Virus record (IMG/VR): IMGVR_UViG_3300027801_001565
DNA: 64,000 nucleotides
Reading direction: 5' to 3' (one strand)
From: a virus
Shown here: in pieces, positions 1 to 4,823 of the stretch
Position numbering within the stretch: position 1 is the first letter of the stretch
Layout: each line of letters begins with the position of its first letter
Program-made: the position numbers and the translations under genes
Notes under the pieces: model-generated
Databases searched by the model: none
Told to the model about the DNA's origin: nothing
The model's input: only the letters and a program-made list of their open reading frames with translations

Positions 1-616
1 CATCTAGGAGATCTTGAAGTTCTTGTTGAAGTGGCTCCAACTCGTCTTGTCTTTCTTCTGATTCTGCTTTAGACATGTCAGCCAGTTCGAGAGATAATAC
101 TTTAACATCTTCCCAAGTTTCTGTCTTTGCAACTCTGTCTAGAAAATTCTGTTCGTCAGCTGTAAATTTAAGACCTAGTAAGTGGCCTATTTTAAAGTGA
201 AGGTTAACTCTGTCTACGAATGGGAGTTTAGATAAGTCTCTTCCTTTAACACCAAAAAAGTCTTTGTCGAATAATTCTTGGTACCCTTTATGAAATGACT
301 TTGTTAGTCCAGGGTATTGGGCTTTAATTTTTCTTTCAATCCTTGCGTCTTCTATAATGTTGTAGAAGGCTTTAAGATTAGGAGTATCACAAACCGCATC
401 ATGCCATCCTTCCTCAGGAGTGTTACGAGCATGGCCAACTTCATGTCCAATAAACAAATCATATAGATCGTTTGACATCTCTTTCCAAACTGGAAGATAT
501 AATGTACGAGCCTTGACATCAAATGCCGCTGTACTCATCTTAGGATCATGTACAATACTGATGTCTTCAGTAGCTAATAGCTTGGCTAGTATTGTCTTTG
601 TTTCGATTTGATTCAT
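1..616 (-). CDS. CobT/VWA-associated metallopeptidase-like protein of T4-like phages (N-terminal part, runs off the window)
   Basis: Not in ORF track. Manual translation from ATG at 616: MNQIETKTILAKLLATEDISIVHDPKMSTAAFDVKARTLYLPVWKEMSNDLYDLFIGHEVGHARNTP; HExxH motif; GAGG Shine-Dalgarno upstream. Confidence 0.75.
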   Translation of the reverse strand, partial: MNQIETKTILAKLLATEDISIVHDPKMSTAAFDVKARTLYLPVWKEMSNDLYDLFIGHEVGHARNTPEEGWHDAVCDTPNLKAFYNIIEDARIERKIKAQYPGLTKSFHKGYQELFDKDFFGVKGRDLSKLPFVDRVNLHFKIGHLLGLKFTADEQNFLDRVAKTETWEDVKVLSLELADMSKAESEERQDELEPLQQELQDLLD

Positions 617-713: not shown

Positions 714-726
714 TATCAGTAACTTA
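714..726 (+). promoter_or_regulatory. Putative IHF site TATCAGTAACTTA
   Basis: Matches WATCARNNNNTTR; same 12-mer ATCAGTAACTTA recurs at 45570-45581 upstream of another early promoter. Confidence 0.5.
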
Positions 727-2269
727 CGTCAAAAGTTATAGATATTTGCCTTCCACCTGCTCCATATCCAGGGATTATCTCGAATTCATTGTCGAAAAGG
801 TCCTGAATCTGTATGCCAAGGCGTGTTGTTGGGTTAATCCAATTACCGTAGTTGATTGAGAATACTGATACATCATCAATTGGCCTGCCAATATAGTCCA
901 GTCCCTTATCAAATTCGCCTGCGTACTCAAATGACACATCACCATATGGTGCCTTTGTAACTGTCCAAGCAAACATTGTTCTATACTTAGCCTGAGAGGA
1001 TACATCTGTATCAATCAATCCAACATAAGCAAAGAACTCACCAACGTCTGTCATGTATGTTTTTCTAATGTTCATACCTCTAGAAATGTAGTTGCCTGTA
1101 TTAACATACTGCTGATTAGCGCTGTCATAATCTATACCTTCAGAGAAGTCATAATAGAATACTGATACAAGATCCCAACCAACTGTTAGTCCAATTGCTT
1201 CCTCACTTGATAAATCGGGGCTTGCTACAACATAGTCATCACCGTATCGTTCGTAAAGACTAGGACGCCTAACACTATTACCTAATGATATATTAAACTT
1301 ACCTAGCTTAGTACCAACTCTAATTGTGTGATCTCCTTCCTCAGTTCTAATACCTAACCCTACATTATTATAATCGTAATTCAAGTAACCAGCTACTGTG
1401 TCTCGCCAGTAGCCTAGCGTTGCTGTATCGTATGACTCTCTTTGTGCTGTTATACCTACAAGTAGTCCTGGCATTATCTCTTTGTTTACATCACTATATA
1501 TTCTATCTGATTTAGATTCCCAGCCCGTATTATGTTTGGAATCATCTAAGGTATATCCGAATGTAAAGATATCATTTCTTAATGAGGTATCTACTTTGTA
1601 TCCTTCTTGACTACAATCGTTTGAGGGAGTCCACCCTACCCAACAATTATCATAATCATATTTGTATTCTTGGTAACTAGAAACTAGTGTCCAGTCTTTG
1701 TACTCTCGTTTTGTTTTAAACGATATTGTTTCAAAGAAGTCTTCTTCTTCATTGTCTGTTCTTACTGAACCATTAGATCCTTTGTATGCTGATAGTTGAA
1801 AGTTCTCATGTCCTACTACTAGGTTAACTAAACCATCACCGCCTTTATAAAAAACAGATCTATCGAAGTTGTCCTCAATAAGAACTACACCTCCCATAGA
1901 TGAGCTACCATATAATGCTGTTGGTCCTTGGTATATTTTATACGATTGGAATAAAGGAATATCTAATCCTATATTATACCAACCGGAACCTGGATCGTTT
2001 ACAGGGATCCCGTTTCTATATACTGCTGTATGTTTTGCGTCTGTGCCATTTAGTTTTGGTGCCATGAAGCCACCAACACCACCGGGGGTGTATAACATCG
2101 TAGGGTGTAGTGCTTCTATTGCAGATGAATCCGTTTCCGGATCTGAGTCTGTAACAGATATCGTTGCGCCTACAACTATTACTTCTTCTATGTCTGAGGC
2201 GTATACTGTTGTCGTAAAAAATCCTACAAGCAATAATGCAAGTAGGAGTTTAGTGTTATTAACGTTCAT
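716..2269 (-). CDS. TonB-dependent outer-membrane receptor (compact, BtuB-like)
   Basis: Signal peptide; TonB-box-like IEEVIVVG; plug motifs (HTAVYRNGIPVND, QGPTALYGSSSMGGVV); C-terminal DLFDNEF..GRQISITFDVSY with terminal aromatic residue. Confidence 0.85.
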   Translation of the reverse strand: MNVNNTKLLLALLLVGFFTTTVYASDIEEVIVVGATISVTDSDPETDSSAIEALHPTMLYTPGGVGGFMAPKLNGTDAKHTAVYRNGIPVNDPGSGWYNIGLDIPLFQSYKIYQGPTALYGSSSMGGVVLIEDNFDRSVFYKGGDGLVNLVVGHENFQLSAYKGSNGSVRTDNEEEDFFETISFKTKREYKDWTLVSSYQEYKYDYDNCWVGWTPSNDCSQEGYKVDTSLRNDIFTFGYTLDDSKHNTGWESKSDRIYSDVNKEIMPGLLVGITAQRESYDTATLGYWRDTVAGYLNYDYNNVGLGIRTEEGDHTIRVGTKLGKFNISLGNSVRRPSLYERYGDDYVVASPDLSSEEAIGLTVGWDLVSVFYYDFSEGIDYDSANQQYVNTGNYISRGMNIRKTYMTDVGEFFAYVGLIDTDVSSQAKYRTMFAWTVTKAPYGDVSFEYAGEFDKGLDYIGRPIDDVSVFSINYGNWINPTTRLGIQIQDLFDNEFEIIPGYGAGGRQISITFDVSY

Positions 2270-2292: not shown

Positions 2293-2742
2293 TTATTTAG
2301 ATAGAGATTCTATCCATTTTTTACATCCTTTGATTCCGTAACCAAAAGAAGCACCTGCTTCACCGCAGGGATAATGCTTAAGATAAGCTTCCCTGTCTGT
2401 AAGTCCTCGATTTCTCTTTTTCCTAGGGAGGTCCATCCATTGACAATACTGTCCTGTTCCATCCACATAAAAACATGTGTTGTATGTAGGCCAGGATGTC
2501 TTTCTCGATGGTTTGTTTATTGGGCTGATGGGAGGTATAATTACTGTCCCGTCAGGCAAAATAATTGTTGCATGGTTTGGGACTCTTTTATCCTGTTTAA
2601 ATTCATTAACAAGAACACCCCCAATAATAGATCCTATGATGAGGTTATTAAATTCTGCATCTGCTTGTGCTGGTTGCGAAAATACACCTACTAGTAGTCC
2701 TAGTAATGCGCCTGCAATAAAAGTTCCGTATCGTAGTCTCAT
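2293..2742 (-). CDS. Secreted/membrane hypothetical protein with glycine-zipper-like segment
   Basis: Signal peptide ending AQA; IIGSIIGGVLV. Confidence 0.6.
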   Translation of the reverse strand: MRLRYGTFIAGALLGLLVGVFSQPAQADAEFNNLIIGSIIGGVLVNEFKQDKRVPNHATIILPDGTVIIPPISPINKPSRKTSWPTYNTCFYVDGTGQYCQWMDLPRKKRNRGLTDREAYLKHYPCGEAGASFGYGIKGCKKWIESLSK

Positions 2743-2879
2743 TATTTATCCGCCTTATCTTTTAGGAGTTTTTCAATTCTCCTTTGCTGTTCCTTTATCT
2801 TTTCTGCTTGGTGCATTATTGTGAGGAACTCTTTATCTACTTCGCTCCTTTGTGGAAACTCTATTACTTTATCAGCCAT
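2742..2879 (-). CDS. Small hypothetical protein (45 aa, MADKVIEFPQR...)
   Basis: Manual ORF with AGGAG SD; TAATG overlap with next gene. Confidence 0.6.
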   Translation of the reverse strand: MADKVIEFPQRSEVDKEFLTIMHQAEKIKEQQRRIEKLLKDKADK

Positions 2880-2919
2880 ATATTCTCTCCTTTATTTACT
2901 ATAAGACTAAGTATACTAT

Positions 2920-3522
2920 CTATTTAACCTTTTGTAAAGTACTCTTCGTTGTTTTTGGTCCTTTACTTTTCTTGTTAGCAGCTTTGTTTCTAAGTTCTAA
3001 ACGCTTCGTAACTTGGTCTGGTGTCATCCAATAATCCTTACCTCTTATCATCTCTTCAATTTCTTTGTCTGTAAGGAAGTCCTTGTACACTTGTTTAAAG
3101 AGTTGAGTAGCCCATTTGTTATCTGCCATTACACTCTCTAGTTGTTCATGTCCTTTACCCCAATTACCTGAGCTGTAAGTATGGAACATGAAGTGAGAAT
3201 GATCTGATATCTCACATACATCTGCACATAAGAATATTAGAGTGGCTGCTGACATACACATGCCTTCTACCGAGGCAACTACTGTTGCTGGGCATTGGGA
3301 TATAGATCTCATTAACTGAATAGCTGTAAATATTTCACCACCAGATGAATTGATGTGAATAATAACCGCATCGTTCTCACCGGCTTGTCTCATTAACTGG
3401 TTCCAATCCTGATACTCTTTAGCATCTGTAATTGTACCTGTTAGATAAAAGTCGTATACTCGTGCCAGTGGACGTTCATATGCGTTTTGTAATTGTAGGG
3501 CTTTATTGTTAGACTCGTTCAT
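2920..3522 (-). CDS. ClpP-like serine protease
   Basis: INSSGGEIFTA, GMCMSAAT (catalytic Ser), FMFH (His), DYWMTPDQ. Confidence 0.85.
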   Translation of the reverse strand: MNESNNKALQLQNAYERPLARVYDFYLTGTITDAKEYQDWNQLMRQAGENDAVIIHINSSGGEIFTAIQLMRSISQCPATVVASVEGMCMSAATLIFLCADVCEISDHSHFMFHTYSSGNWGKGHEQLESVMADNKWATQLFKQVYKDFLTDKEIEEMIRGKDYWMTPDQVTKRLELRNKAANKKSKGPKTTKSTLQKVK

Positions 3523-3862
3523 AATATCTCGTTACCGCCTTAATCTTTTCAATCTGTGTATCAATGATAGCCACTCTGTTAGGCCAATGTATATATTCCT
3601 TTTCAGGATTCTTTTGCAAATTGTAAAGTAGAGGAAGAACAAGATCTTCTACGTCACGAAGTTTAGTTGCCACGTCGGACTCAATTAACGCTCTGTGTTC
3701 GTTAACCATTCCAGAGTTATCAGCTTGTAGAATTTTTGCTTCTAACTGCGTGAGTTTATCTAGTAATTTATCTGTTTCAATAGAAGGAGCAATAGCCTGT
3801 TGAGGGTTTAAATTCTCTGGTTCGTCTACTGCTGTAAAGCCAAAATCGAAAGCGTCTGCCAT
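3509..3862 (-). CDS. Conserved T4-like phage hypothetical protein
   Basis: FDFGFTAVDE...LPLLYNLQKNPEKEYIHWPNR; late promoter upstream. Confidence 0.7.
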   Translation of the reverse strand: MADAFDFGFTAVDEPENLNPQQAIAPSIETDKLLDKLTQLEAKILQADNSGMVNEHRALIESDVATKLRDVEDLVLPLLYNLQKNPEKEYIHWPNRVAIIDTQIEKIKAVTRYYERV

Positions 3863-3882
3863 GATGTCTCCTTATTATATAT

Positions 3883-3890
3883 TATTTATA
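3883..3890 (-). promoter_or_regulatory. T4-type late promoter TATAAATA
   Basis: Exact gp55 consensus in an intergenic gap. Confidence 0.7.
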
Positions 3891-3891
3891 A

Positions 3892-4461
3892 CTACTTCTT
3901 AGGAGAAGATAGCCTTTGGTATTTCTTAATCTTTTTATCTATAGACTTAAGAGCTCTTTTAATTTTCTCTTTAGACGCTCTCATAGTAAAGTTCTGTCCG
4001 AGCATGTGATCGTATTCATGTTGTATTACTCTTGATGTAATACCTTCATACGTCTCCATCTTTTCTTCACCTAACTCGTCCCAATACTTAATCATACATA
4101 CTGTAGGTCTTGAAATCATTAACCACAGTCCCGGGAACGATAAGCATCCTTCTTTCATTGCTTCTGTCTCTTTACCTACACCCATGATCTCTGGGTTAAA
4201 GAATGCCTTTTGCATTCCATCAGGTTGTCCGTCGCCAATTACAAACACCTTGGCGTCTATGCCAACTTGGTTAGCAGACAATCCTACTCCACCTAGTTCA
4301 GCCATTCTCTCTAACAAACGAGCCTTTAGTGCAGGTGCATCGTTGCCTTCAAATACATAAGGAGTAGGAGGTGTTCTAAGTTGAGGGTCTGCAAAGTTTA
4401 TAAGCTCTAGTGGATCTACTTCCGTTGCTTCTTGTACTTCTGTCAATTCCATTTCTTCCAT
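3892..4461 (-). CDS. def: Peptide deformylase
   Basis: GVGLSANQVG, EGCLS and QHEYDHMLG motifs. Confidence 0.95.
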   Translation of the reverse strand: MEEMELTEVQEATEVDPLELINFADPQLRTPPTPYVFEGNDAPALKARLLERMAELGGVGLSANQVGIDAKVFVIGDGQPDGMQKAFFNPEIMGVGKETEAMKEGCLSFPGLWLMISRPTVCMIKYWDELGEEKMETYEGITSRVIQHEYDHMLGQNFTMRASKEKIKRALKSIDKKIKKYQRLSSPKK

Positions 4462-4463
4462 AA

Positions 4464-4823
4464 TTAATTTCCTATTGTTGGTCGTTTATCGTCTTCAATT
4501 ATTCCGTCGTAACCTTTGAATCTATAGTATACTGTTATCTCTTCGCCTGACTTAATAGGCATAGTAGCATACAATGTTCTGTCACCTGCATCAGTAGTAA
4601 TAAAACAGTTTGGATTCTCACTATGATTTATAAAACCTCCGAGGGGCGTTCTAATCCATTCATGTCTGTCTCTGCTGTGTACTAACACATGGGTCTCACC
4701 AAAGACCGTACCGGCATCAAAAGATTGCTCTGCATGTAATCCTAAACCTTCGATCTTACTCTTCTTAATTGTAAGCCCTATAGGAAGTGGTCTGTATGTT
4801 GCGTTGGTATTAATTTTCATCAT
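4464..4823 (-). CDS. Minimal SET-domain protein (lysine methyltransferase-like)
   Basis: GLGLHA, FINHSENPN, GEEITVYY SET motifs. Confidence 0.85.
   Translation of the reverse strand: MMKINTNATYRPLPIGLTIKKSKIEGLGLHAEQSFDAGTVFGETHVLVHSRDRHEWIRTPLGGFINHSENPNCFITTDAGDRTLYATMPIKSGEEITVYYRFKGYDGIIEDDKRPTIGN

What the first reader, a model, noticed from the sequence alone, without database searches (positions are those of the whole stretch)
716..2269. Phage-encoded compact TonB-dependent receptor
Seen: complete-looking TBDR (signal peptide, TonB box, plug, terminal aromatic strand) of only 517 aa in a lytic-type genome. Known: TBDRs import B12/siderophores and are frequent phage receptors. Inference: nutrient-uptake auxiliary gene (B12 or iron, fitting IscU/IscA and radical SAM demand), or a decoy/TonB sink for superinfection exclusion. 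The short length may mean trimmed loops or fewer strands.
Basis: partly seen in the sequence, partly recalled or inferred. Interest (0 to 1): 0.7.

Follow-up and report, generated by a model that had tools for sequence, protein, structure and literature searches.

The report
Phage-made miniature vitamin B12 gate
An uncultured marine T4-like phage carries an intact, unusually small copy of the bacterial outer-membrane vitamin B12 import gate (BtuB), part of a gene family found here only in phages, and it most likely lets infected cells take up extra B12 for the phage's own B12-dependent enzymes.

Summary
Window 716-2269 (-) is an intact 517-aa gene with a signal peptide, a TonB box, a plug domain (Pfam PF07715 above cut-off) and a complete 22-strand barrel. 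The AlphaFold2 model has pLDDT 89.5. It aligns to E. coli BtuB at Z 37.2 over 485 of 493 mature residues. It is about 100 residues shorter than BtuB because its outer loops and plug are trimmed, not because strands are missing.

It belongs to a single-clade family under purifying selection (dN/dS 0.1-0.24). The family has 282 loci in IMG/VR, in T4-like and PA5oct-like jumbo marine phages. I found no relative in 185,579 cellular species genomes or in 50,697 GenBank phage records.

The outward-facing loops and the TonB box are the best-conserved parts, which argues for a working, ligand-specific transporter.

Records carrying the gene usually also carry cobalamin-type radical SAM enzymes (7 of 11, against 1 of 9 sister records). 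In three loci that enzyme gene starts 11 nt after the transporter's stop codon.

Best reading (about 0.5): an early-expressed corrinoid importer that uses the host's TonB. An iron or haem importer and superinfection exclusion remain possible. The scan had already noted this same stretch in an overlapping window. I class it as a new variant of a known kind.

The parts
716..2269 (-). Gene for the compact BtuB-like TonB-dependent transporter (517 aa, P0001; stop codon at 716-718)
   Evidence: ORF and translation. Pfam Plug above cut-off. Family profile against E. coli BtuB: E 5e-26 and hhalign probability 99.2%. AF2 model pLDDT 89.5. VIA-align Z 37.2, rmsd 2.4 A, 485 residues aligned to BtuB 2gsk_A.
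2198..2269 (-). Signal peptide, residues 1-24, with predicted cleavage VYA|SD
   Evidence: Read from the sequence. All 50 homologues have a hydrophobic N-terminus followed by a small-x-small site and then [DE][IV]EE. The model has low pLDDT here. No signal-peptide predictor was available.
2165..2197 (-). TonB-box region, residues 25-35 (SDIEEVIVVGA)
   Evidence: Family consensus xEIEEVIVVGA; E28, V32 and G34 are at least 90% conserved. Mean conservation is 0.70, against 0.52 for barrel strands. The region is disordered in the model, as expected for a Ton box.
1871..2164 (-). Plug (hatch) domain, residues 36-133; about 109 mature residues against 132 in BtuB
   Evidence: PF07715 matches residues 61-128. 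The plug aligns with BtuB plug residues 40-131. The motif NDPGSGW is invariant or nearly so.
719..1858 (-). 22-strand beta-barrel, residues 138-517, with very short outer loops (L2 9, L3 12, L4 4, L5 6, L8 4, L9 7 residues)
   Evidence: DSSP strand list of the model. The barrel superposes on BtuB along its full length. BtuB loop ranges for comparison come from PMC7360065. Loop L2 (SVRTDNxExD) aligns with the BtuB L2 stretch QAQTDN-D. C209 and C219 are invariant and bracket L3.
2293..2742 (-). Upstream 149-aa secreted small protein (P0207): signal peptide, glycine-zipper helix, Cys-rich tail. It ends 23 nt before the transporter's ATG and is probably co-transcribed.
   Evidence: Translation and sequence. 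Homologues sit directly upstream of the transporter in 23 loci, all of genomic setting A, and are absent from the other settings. No Pfam or PHROG match.
2742..2879 (-). 45-codon ORF whose TAA overlaps the ATG of the small secreted protein (TAATG); first cistron of the putative unit
   Evidence: Read from the sequence.
2910..2938 (-). Sigma-70-like promoter match (TTTACA-17-TATACT, 10 of 12) upstream of the three-gene unit; hints at early expression
   Evidence: Consensus scan only. The region has 24 such sites against 17.9 +/- 3.5 in shuffles, so this is weak evidence.
2..616 (-). Start of the downstream 'peptidase' gene (phrog_459), which precedes cobS in related genomes; it marks the conserved T4-like backbone beside the variable gene island
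   Evidence: PHROG match E 1.8e-79. Same gene order in L001 and L012. Cyanophage P-HM2 has gp47-gp46-peptidase-cobS without the transporter.

Best explanation
The gene encodes a working, phage-specific, miniature BtuB-type TonB-dependent outer-membrane transporter. After infection it is probably transcribed early. The protein would be exported by Sec, inserted into the host outer membrane by BAM, and energised by the host TonB-ExbB-ExbD through its conserved TonB box. It would then bring a corrinoid (cobalamin or a close relative) into the periplasm. The host inner-membrane system would carry the corrinoid further, and it would load the phage's own cobalamin-dependent (class B) radical SAM enzymes. 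A riboswitch-free phage copy would escape the B12 repression and the transcription shut-off that affect a host btuB. Shown here: gene integrity, fold, family membership, phage-only distribution in the searched collections, purifying selection, conserved outer loops and TonB box, and co-occurrence and adjacency with B12-type radical SAM genes. Inferred: the substrate, TonB dependence, expression timing, and use of host partners.
For: The fold is complete: AF2 pLDDT 89.5, and Z 37.2, rmsd 2.4 A, 485 of 493 mature residues aligned to E. coli BtuB. Bacteroides B12 transporters come next (Z about 33), then haem transporters (Z about 31).

By sequence, the family profile hits BtuB at E 5e-26, while the next non-BtuB structure scores 6.5e-5. 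hhalign gives probability 99.2%, and loop L2 'TDNxExD' aligns with the BtuB L2 stretch 'TDN-D'. The ten nearest long cellular relatives all have TIGR01779 (TonB-B12) as their best family.

The gene is under constraint: dN/dS is 0.10-0.24 in 12 informative pairs. Outer loops (mean conservation 0.63; L2 0.76, L11 0.75) and the TonB box (0.70) are more conserved than barrel strands (0.52) or periplasmic turns (0.37).

B12 link: the neighbouring radical SAM family carries an N-terminal B12-binding domain, and its profile hits the cobalamin-dependent methylases TokK (1.6e-9) and CysS (2e-5). That family is present in 7 of 11 transporter-bearing records, against 1 of 9 sister T4-like records without the transporter (Fisher p = 0.028). 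Both near-complete transporter-bearing genomes (G001 with 3 copies, G030) have it; the complete sister genome G013 has none. In L025, L030 and L032 the B12-radical SAM gene starts 11 nt after the transporter's stop codon.

The family is one clade, held in two deep phage lineages.
Against: The score on the BtuB equivalog model is only 35.6 bits against a cut-off of 599.7. Loops L4, L5 and L8 are almost absent here, and published work holds L2-L5 important for high-affinity B12 binding in E. coli BtuB (PMC7360065). The binding mode, and possibly the substrate, must therefore differ.

Most PF02310 matches on the radical SAM proteins fall below Pfam's cut-off.

The association runs one way only: 20 of 22 other phage records with this radical SAM family lack the transporter. 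IscU presence tracks the transporter too, so co-occurrence alone does not separate B12 from iron.

The records compared are related to each other, so the Fisher test overstates independence. The phage records examined carry no TonB, ExbB or BtuF. The host is unknown. No experiment exists.
Confidence: 0.5

Rival explanations
1. It is an importer for an iron complex, haem or another metal chelate.
For: IscU is present in both complete transporter-bearing genomes (G001, G030) and absent from the sister records G012, G013 and G015. In G030, IscU lies about 350 bp from the transporter gene. G001 has 9 radical SAM matches against 3 in G013. The window encodes IscU and IscA. Haem transporters ChuA, ShuA and PhuR are the next structural and sequence neighbours after the BtuBs.
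Against: BtuB is much the best match by sequence (E 5e-26 against 6.5e-5 for PhuR) and by structure (Z 37 against 31). The nearest cellular relatives are all BtuB-like. Between the two conserved L7 motifs the family has no histidine, which haem receptors carry there (from memory of the FRAP/NPNL literature; alignment).
Confidence: 0.17
2. It is a superinfection-exclusion or competition device. An abundant TonB-box protein would titrate the host's TonB, or replace host receptors. That would block TonB-dependent entry of rival phages and bacteriocins without offering the long loops they usually dock on.
For: The TonB box is highly conserved. The loops that phages and colicins bind on BtuB-type receptors are trimmed. 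Phage-encoded blockers of TonB-dependent receptors are known, for example T5 Llp on FhuA, which appears as PDB 8a60.
Against: A TonB sink needs only the N-terminus, yet the whole barrel is under purifying selection and the remaining outer loops L2, L7 and L11 are the most conserved parts. This reading does not explain the adjacency to B12-radical SAM genes.
Confidence: 0.1
3. It is a transporter for some other scarce molecule, such as another cofactor or a precursor for the phage's deazaguanine or tailoring pathways. It would be derived from a BtuB-like ancestor but with changed specificity.
For: Large divergence from BtuB (18% identity). The plug apex motifs are remodelled (NDPGSGW against LAGVSGS in BtuB). 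Loops L4 and L5 are missing. These phages carry many unusual biosynthetic genes.
Against: No specific candidate ligand is supported. The only recurrent neighbour with a clear cofactor need is the B12-type radical SAM enzyme.
Confidence: 0.15

Closest known systems
E. coli BtuB, the outer-membrane cobalamin transporter (PDB 1NQE-1NQH, 2GSK; TIGR01779)
   Same: Same architecture: TonB box, plug and 22-strand barrel. It is the best match by sequence profile (E 5e-26; hhalign 99.2%) and by structure (Z 37.2). The L2 'TDN..D' motif, the L7 'PNLxxxYG...NPxLxPE' motif and the L11 'FDxxFE...GYxxxGR' motif are shared.
   Different: About 100 residues shorter (517 against 614 precursor residues). Loops L2, L4, L5, L8 and L9 are cut down and the plug is about 23 residues shorter. 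Identity is 18%. It scores far below the equivalog cut-off. No cobalamin riboswitch lies upstream. It is encoded by phages, and no cellular copy was found.
TonB-dependent transporters carried as extra genes by temperate phages of ammonia-oxidising bacteria (bioRxiv 10.64898/2026.05.02.722434)
   Same: These are also phage-borne TonB-dependent transporters proposed to aid nutrient uptake.
   Different: Those are described as siderophore- or haem-family receptors of ordinary type in temperate phages. This one is a phage-only compact BtuB-like clade in T4-like and jumbo phages of lytic type. I did not compare the sequences.
Other phage-encoded outer-membrane proteins: a SusC-like receptor (UniProt A0A8D9FQQ5, uncultured marine phage) and porin/OmpA-like proteins in BFVD
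   Same: They are phage genes for host outer-membrane beta-barrels. The SusC-like protein shares the TonB-dependent transporter fold.
   Different: The SusC-like protein is 805 aa with TM-score 0.59/0.41 and 11% identity, so it belongs to a different subfamily. No member of the compact family turned up in BFVD.
cobS/'peptidase' pair of T4-like cyanophages (for example P-HM2)
   Same: It sits at the same genomic place, and cobS is named for cobalamin. In the window's lineage the transporter lies directly upstream of this conserved pair.
   Different: cobS is a cytoplasmic AAA+ protein of unproven role and is present in phages without the transporter. The adjacency looks like insertion into a variable gene island. 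In four other genomic settings the transporter is not beside cobS.

Membership tests
TonB-dependent transporter superfamily | N-terminal plug domain (Pfam PF07715) | tested here: met
   26.7 bits against a cut-off of 23.9, residues 61-128. The L030 homologue scores 29.3 bits.
TonB-dependent transporter superfamily | 22-strand beta-barrel enclosing the plug | tested here: met
   The AF2 model has 22 strands. 485 residues superpose on BtuB at rmsd 2.4 A, Z 37.2. This rests on a prediction, not a solved structure.
TonB-dependent transporter superfamily | Pfam barrel model (TonB_dep_Rec) detectable | tested here: not met
   Only Plug was reported at E <= 0.01. The barrel is too divergent or too short for the Pfam model, although the C-terminal half aligns with BtuB.
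TonB-dependent transporter superfamily | TonB box near the mature N-terminus | tested here: met
   The motif [DE][IV]EE[VI][IV]V[VI]G follows the signal peptide directly and is conserved in 50 sequences. This shows the motif only.
TonB-dependent transporter superfamily | Transport depends on TonB-ExbB-ExbD and the proton-motive force | not testable with these tools
   The host is unknown. The phage records encode no TonB_C or ExbB, so host proteins would be needed.
TonB-dependent transporter superfamily | C-terminal aromatic residue (signal for outer-membrane insertion) | tested here: inconclusive
   The window protein ends in Y. Family members end in L, Y, H, I, R, N or K, often with the aromatic residue at the second-to-last position.
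BtuB (cobalamin transporter, TIGR01779 equivalog) | Score above the curated equivalog cut-off | tested here: not met
   35.6 bits against 599.7. The nearest cellular relatives are also below the cut-off, though TIGR01779 is their best family.
BtuB (cobalamin transporter, TIGR01779 equivalog) | Calcium-binding aspartate cage in loops L2 and L3 | tested here: inconclusive
   Loop L2 'TDNxExD' (N173, E175 and D177 invariant) aligns with BtuB 'TDN-D', residues 192-195 of the mature protein. L3 is shorter, closed by two invariant cysteines, and carries a conserved ND. The five-aspartate cage is described in PMC7360065. The identity of the BtuB calcium ligands is from my memory.
BtuB (cobalamin transporter, TIGR01779 equivalog) | Long loops L2-L5 that enclose the substrate | tested here: not met
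   Model loops: L2 9, L3 12, L4 4, L5 6 residues. BtuB: 21, 15, 14 and 11 (PMC7360065).
BtuB (cobalamin transporter, TIGR01779 equivalog) | Cobalamin riboswitch control (common but not universal) | tested here: not met
   No Rfam family reaches its threshold anywhere in the window.
BtuB (cobalamin transporter, TIGR01779 equivalog) | Binds and transports cobalamin | not testable with these tools
   No corrinoid ligand is offered by the structure tools. There is only indirect support from B12-type radical SAM neighbours.
Phage auxiliary (host-like) gene | Host-type gene embedded among phage core genes and maintained by selection | tested here: met
   Flanked by gp47/gp46 and by peptidase/cobS/gp45/gp44. 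282 IMG/VR loci. dN/dS 0.1-0.24.

The most novel reading that the evidence does not exclude
Marine lytic phages from two deep lineages (T4-like and PA5oct-like jumbo) maintain their own exclusive lineage of the smallest natural TonB-dependent transporters seen in this study. They would install it in the dying host's outer membrane to take scarce cobalamin from seawater for phage-encoded B12-dependent radical SAM chemistry. That would be a vitamin-uptake auxiliary gene acting at the cell surface, and a natural minimal scaffold for studying TonB-dependent transport.
Probability: 0.45. Interest if true: 0.8.

Novelty: new variant of a known kind. Interest (0 to 1): 0.72.

Why it matters
If the reading holds, three things follow.

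1. Phage auxiliary genes would extend to active nutrient import across the outer membrane during lytic infection. Viral infection would be tied to the marine B12 economy, in which the vitamin is scarce and many bacteria cannot make it.

2. These proteins show how far a TonB-dependent transporter can be pared down: 493 mature residues, with outer loops L4, L5 and L8 almost gone, while 22 strands, a plug and a TonB box remain. That helps define the minimal transport machine and the real role of the loops.

3. A receptor without long loops may be hard for rival phages and bacteriocins to use, which is a testable trade-off.

4. The tight link to cobalamin-type radical SAM genes also marks those unstudied phage enzymes as important.

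Tried and rejected
**Searches that found nothing**
- PHROGs gave no family for the transporter.
- tblastn of the transporter against 50,697 GenBank phage records found no match. The neighbouring B12-radical SAM protein also found none.
- A motif scan of 185,579 cellular species genomes found no relative. It used only two conserved patterns, so very divergent cellular copies could be missed.
- No whole genome is held for the window. The B12-radical SAM genes that earlier notes place upstream of the window could therefore not be checked directly.
- Rfam and tRNA scans found no riboswitch and no tRNA.
- TonB_C, ExbB and BtuF families are absent from the phage records examined.

**NrdJ idea rejected**
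- The ribonucleotide reductase in related genomes scores below the NrdJ cut-off and sits beside NrdB, so it is class I. It is also present in sister phages without the transporter.

**Uninformative predictions**
- Complex prediction of the transporter with the upstream small secreted protein gave no verdict.
- The fold of that small protein came out at pLDDT 54 and says nothing.

**Host search**
- The window's IscU is closest to SAR86 among cellular genomes, at only 64-65% against about 60% for the rest.
- SAR86 receptors are long (740-860 aa) and only weakly similar to this protein. The host stays unknown.
- Two higher IscU hits (79% and 74%), in contigs binned as 'Saprospiraceae' and 'Synechococcus', may be phage DNA binned by mistake.

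**Literature**
- Seven searches found no paper on a phage-encoded compact BtuB.
- The Polarivirus skadi paper annotates a 'TonB-dependent receptor' protein among structural genes (PMC10504331). No GenBank phage record matched my protein, so that is not this family.
- Two BtuB calcium-site papers were not held.

**Other**
- Adjacency to cobS was considered as a B12 clue and set aside. It reflects insertion into a variable gene island.
Full report
**1. The observation**

The minus-strand ORF at 716..2269 is intact. It encodes 517 aa, starts at ATG with an AGGAG 6 nt upstream, and ends in TGA. By inspection the product begins with a signal peptide (residues 1-24, cleavage VYA|SD). The stretch SDIEEVIVVGA follows, which has the form of a TonB box. 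Pfam finds the TonB-dependent receptor Plug domain above its curated cut-off (26.7 against 23.9 bits). NCBIfam gives only a weak match to the BtuB model (35.6 bits against a cut-off of 599.7), and PHROGs gives nothing.

The window is a T4-like phage. It encodes gp23, gp20, gp18, the large terminase, UvsW, gp46 and gp47. Its gp46 is 47-48% identical to those of the OM43 phage Melnitz and of cyanomyoviruses.

**2. Fold**

I folded the protein with an alignment of 50 homologues (A1). AlphaFold2 gave a confident model (pLDDT 89.5, pTM 0.88). Only the signal peptide and TonB box are disordered. The plug spans residues 36-133 and 22 barrel strands span 138-516.

Foldseek ranks the E. coli BtuB entries first (TM-score 0.75 on the query). 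VIA-align gives Z 37.2, rmsd 2.4 A, with 485 of the 493 mature residues aligned to BtuB residues 16-594. Bacteroides B12 transporters follow at Z about 33 and haem transporters at Z about 31.

The protein is therefore a complete transporter, not a fragment or a barrel with fewer strands. The missing 100 or so residues come mostly from the outer loops. The model has L2 9, L3 12, L4 4, L5 6, L8 4 and L9 7 residues. BtuB has 21, 15, 14, 11, 17 and 13 (loop ranges from PMC7360065). The plug is also about 23 residues shorter.

**3. Sequence relationship to BtuB**

The family profile hits E. coli BtuB at E 5e-26. The next unrelated solved receptor, the haem receptor PhuR, scores 6.5e-5. hhalign against the BtuB sequence taken from E. 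coli K-12 gives probability 99.2% over almost the full length.

In that alignment the most conserved outer loop of the phage family, L2 (SVRTDNxExD; N173, E175 and D177 invariant), lies on the BtuB stretch QAQTDN-D. That is residues 189-195 of mature BtuB, within the loop that forms part of the calcium site beside the B12 pocket. The five-aspartate cage and the roles of the loops are described in PMC7360065. The exact ligand residues are from my memory.

Loop L3 is short and bracketed by two invariant cysteines, C209 and C219, which probably form a disulfide. The ten nearest long cellular relatives all have TIGR01779 (TonB-B12) as their best NCBIfam family, although all fall below its cut-off.

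**4. A phage-only family**

The word-indexed search found 60 homologues, all 491-576 aa when full length and 33-51% identical. The exhaustive search found 23 representatives below E 1e-30, all compact or fragments. Scores then jump to about E 1e-11 for ordinary receptors of 600 aa or more.

A motif scan of one genome from each of 185,579 bacterial and archaeal species found no relative. The same kind of scan of IMG/VR found 282 loci. None of 50,697 GenBank phage records has the gene. BFVD holds only a distant 805-aa SusC-like phage protein.

In a maximum-likelihood tree the compact family is one clade (support 100) against the nearest cellular receptors and E. coli BtuB. It splits into a T4-like clade (99) and a jumbo-phage clade (98).

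I clustered the neighbouring genes in 86 loci. This gave five genomic settings, labelled A to E.

- Setting A is the window's arrangement: gp47, gp46, glutaredoxin/SET, peptide deformylase, an unknown gene, a ClpP-like gene, the small secreted protein, then the transporter, then 'peptidase' and cobS.
- Settings B, C and D are three other positions in T4-like genomes.
- Setting E is in jumbo phages whose terminase is 58% identical to that of Pseudomonas phage PA5oct.

Cyanophage P-HM2 has gp47, gp46, peptidase and cobS with no transporter between them. The gene therefore sits in a variable island, and its adjacency to cobS should not be over-read.

**5. Evidence that it works as a transporter**

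dN/dS is 0.10-0.24 in twelve informative pairs. I computed conservation per structural element across the 50 sequences, as the mean frequency of the commonest residue in each column.

| Element | Conservation |
|---|---|
| TonB box | 0.70 |
| Plug | 0.65 |
| Outer loops, mean | 0.63 |
| Loop L2 | 0.76 |
| Loop L11 | 0.75 |
| Loop L7 | 0.70 |
| Barrel strands | 0.52 |
| Periplasmic turns | 0.37 |

A surface protein kept only as a decoy, or one under attack by other phages, would be expected to vary most in its outer loops. Here they vary least, which points to a defined ligand. Part of the L7 and L11 conservation is generic to these transporters. L2 is BtuB-like.

**6. What it imports**

Earlier notes from this scan said the same phage genome encodes B12-binding radical SAM enzymes outside my window (e1-5660642, e1-5660643). 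I could not read that DNA, so I tested relatives instead.

- The 99%-complete relative G001 shares the window's gene order and has 79% gp46 identity. It encodes three members of one radical SAM family (A3), one of them 4 kb from the transporter.
- These proteins combine an N-terminal B12-binding-type domain with a radical SAM core. The B12-domain matches are mostly below Pfam's cut-off, but the jumbo-phage copy scores 42 bits, above it.
- The family profile hits the cobalamin-dependent methylases TokK (1.6e-9) and CysS (2e-5) in the PDB.
- The family is present in 7 of 11 transporter-bearing records. Most of these are 13-62% complete fragments.
- It is present in 1 of 9 sister T4-like records that lack the transporter. 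The complete genome G013 has none. Fisher p = 0.028, but the records are related, so this overstates independence.
- A second complete transporter-bearing genome, G030, also has the family.
- In L025, L030 and L032 the B12-type radical SAM gene starts 11 nt after the transporter's stop codon.

The reverse does not hold. Of 22 other phage records with this radical SAM family, 20 lack the transporter, so the transporter is an optional extra. Its presence probably depends on the host.

The ribonucleotide reductase in these genomes is class I with NrdB, and it is shared with phages that lack the transporter.

IscU tracks the transporter too. It is present in G001 and G030, absent from G012, G013 and G015, and adjacent to the transporter in G030. 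Co-occurrence alone therefore cannot exclude iron or haem. The preference for a corrinoid rests on the protein's own BtuB affinity and on the direct adjacency to the B12-type enzyme.

**7. Mechanism proposed**

A sigma-70-like site at 2910-2938 precedes a three-gene unit: a 45-codon ORF, the small secreted protein and the transporter. This is weak evidence, since such sites are only slightly more common here than in shuffled sequence. There is no riboswitch.

I propose the following sequence of events.

1. The gene is expressed early.
2. The protein is exported by Sec and inserted by BAM.
3. It is energised by the host's TonB, since the phage records encode no TonB, ExbB or BtuF.
4. A corrinoid is taken up and passed to the host's inner-membrane system.
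5. The corrinoid loads the phage's class B radical SAM enzymes.

A phage copy would bypass B12 repression of the host's btuB. OM43 hosts of the related phage Melnitz have such a riboswitch-controlled btuB (PMC9004378). A phage copy would also bypass the shut-off of host transcription. Trimmed loops save coding space and may remove docking sites for rival phages and bacteriocins. All of these steps are inference.

**8. Host**

The host is unknown. The window's IscU is closest, among cellular genomes, to SAR86 (64-65% against about 60% for others). SAR86 genomes hold many long TonB-dependent receptors, none close to this family.

**9. Comparison and novelty**

Phage-borne TonB-dependent transporters have been reported as extra genes in temperate phages of ammonia oxidisers (bioRxiv 10.64898/2026.05.02.722434). 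JGI's automatic annotation already labels some members of the present family 'outer membrane cobalamin receptor'.

I found no paper describing this compact, phage-only clade or its link to B12-type radical SAM genes. The library lacks most subscription journals.

The protein works like BtuB and descends from BtuB-like receptors. It fails the equivalog threshold and lacks the long loops, so I class it as a new variant of a known kind. The scan had already noted this same stretch in an overlapping window (e1-5660667).

**10. Confidence**

| Reading | Confidence |
|---|---|
| Real, functional outer-membrane TonB-dependent-type transporter | about 0.85 |
| Corrinoid importer serving phage B12 enzymes | about 0.5 |
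| Iron or haem importer | about 0.17 |
| Another ligand | about 0.15 |
| Exclusion device or TonB sink | about 0.1 |

Noticed in passing
window 2293-2742 (-); also L012:9552-9992, L001:9554-9982, L030:9348-9947: A family of small secreted proteins (120-199 aa) sits directly upstream of the transporter in 23 loci of one genomic setting only. Each has a signal peptide, the conserved glycine-zipper helix ADTSDVIAGIIFGGILGSEIQK, a PxGTII motif and a Cys-rich YPCG...C tail. It has no Pfam or PHROG match, and its role is unknown.
   Followed up: partly
G030 (IMG/VR 3300017727_001923) 90078-92281: In this complete 149-kb phage genome with terminal repeats, an IscU gene lies about 350 bp from the transporter gene on the opposite strand. 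IscU is present in the transporter-bearing complete genomes and absent from the sister genomes without the transporter.
   Followed up: partly
L177 (JAKVCT010000429.1, 3.3 kb) and L178 (NYUU01000001.1, 30 kb): Contigs binned as 'Saprospiraceae' and 'Synechococcus' MAGs carry IscU genes 79% and 74% identical to the phage's. That is far above any true cellular hit (65% or less). These contigs may be phage DNA binned by mistake.
   Followed up: no
IMG/VR, loci L260-L339: The B12-type radical SAM family (A3) is widespread in viral contigs. At least 584 stretches matched, including jumbo phages of 300-330 kb and two records that IMG/VR classes as proviruses. G001 alone has three paralogues. The substrate is unknown.
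   Followed up: partly
L003, L004, L069 and similar (jumbo-phage setting): Marine PA5oct-like jumbo phages carry the transporter between an unknown 344-aa P-loop-like protein and a DEAD-box helicase. Nearby lie a SAM synthetase, a phosphoribosyltransferase, a nucleoside phosphorylase, ThyX, a phosphopantetheinyl transferase and a DNA ligase.
   Followed up: no
window 2920-4823 (-): The variable island upstream of the transporter also holds a ClpP-like protease (weak Pfam match), a peptide deformylase, a SET-domain protein and two unknown ORFs. All of them are conserved in the same order in related contigs.
   Followed up: no
alignment A1, last columns: The C-terminal residue of the family is not a fixed aromatic. 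T4-like members end in L, Y, H or I. Many jumbo-phage members end in Y followed by R, N or K. This is unusual for proteins that depend on the C-terminal insertion signal.
   Followed up: no
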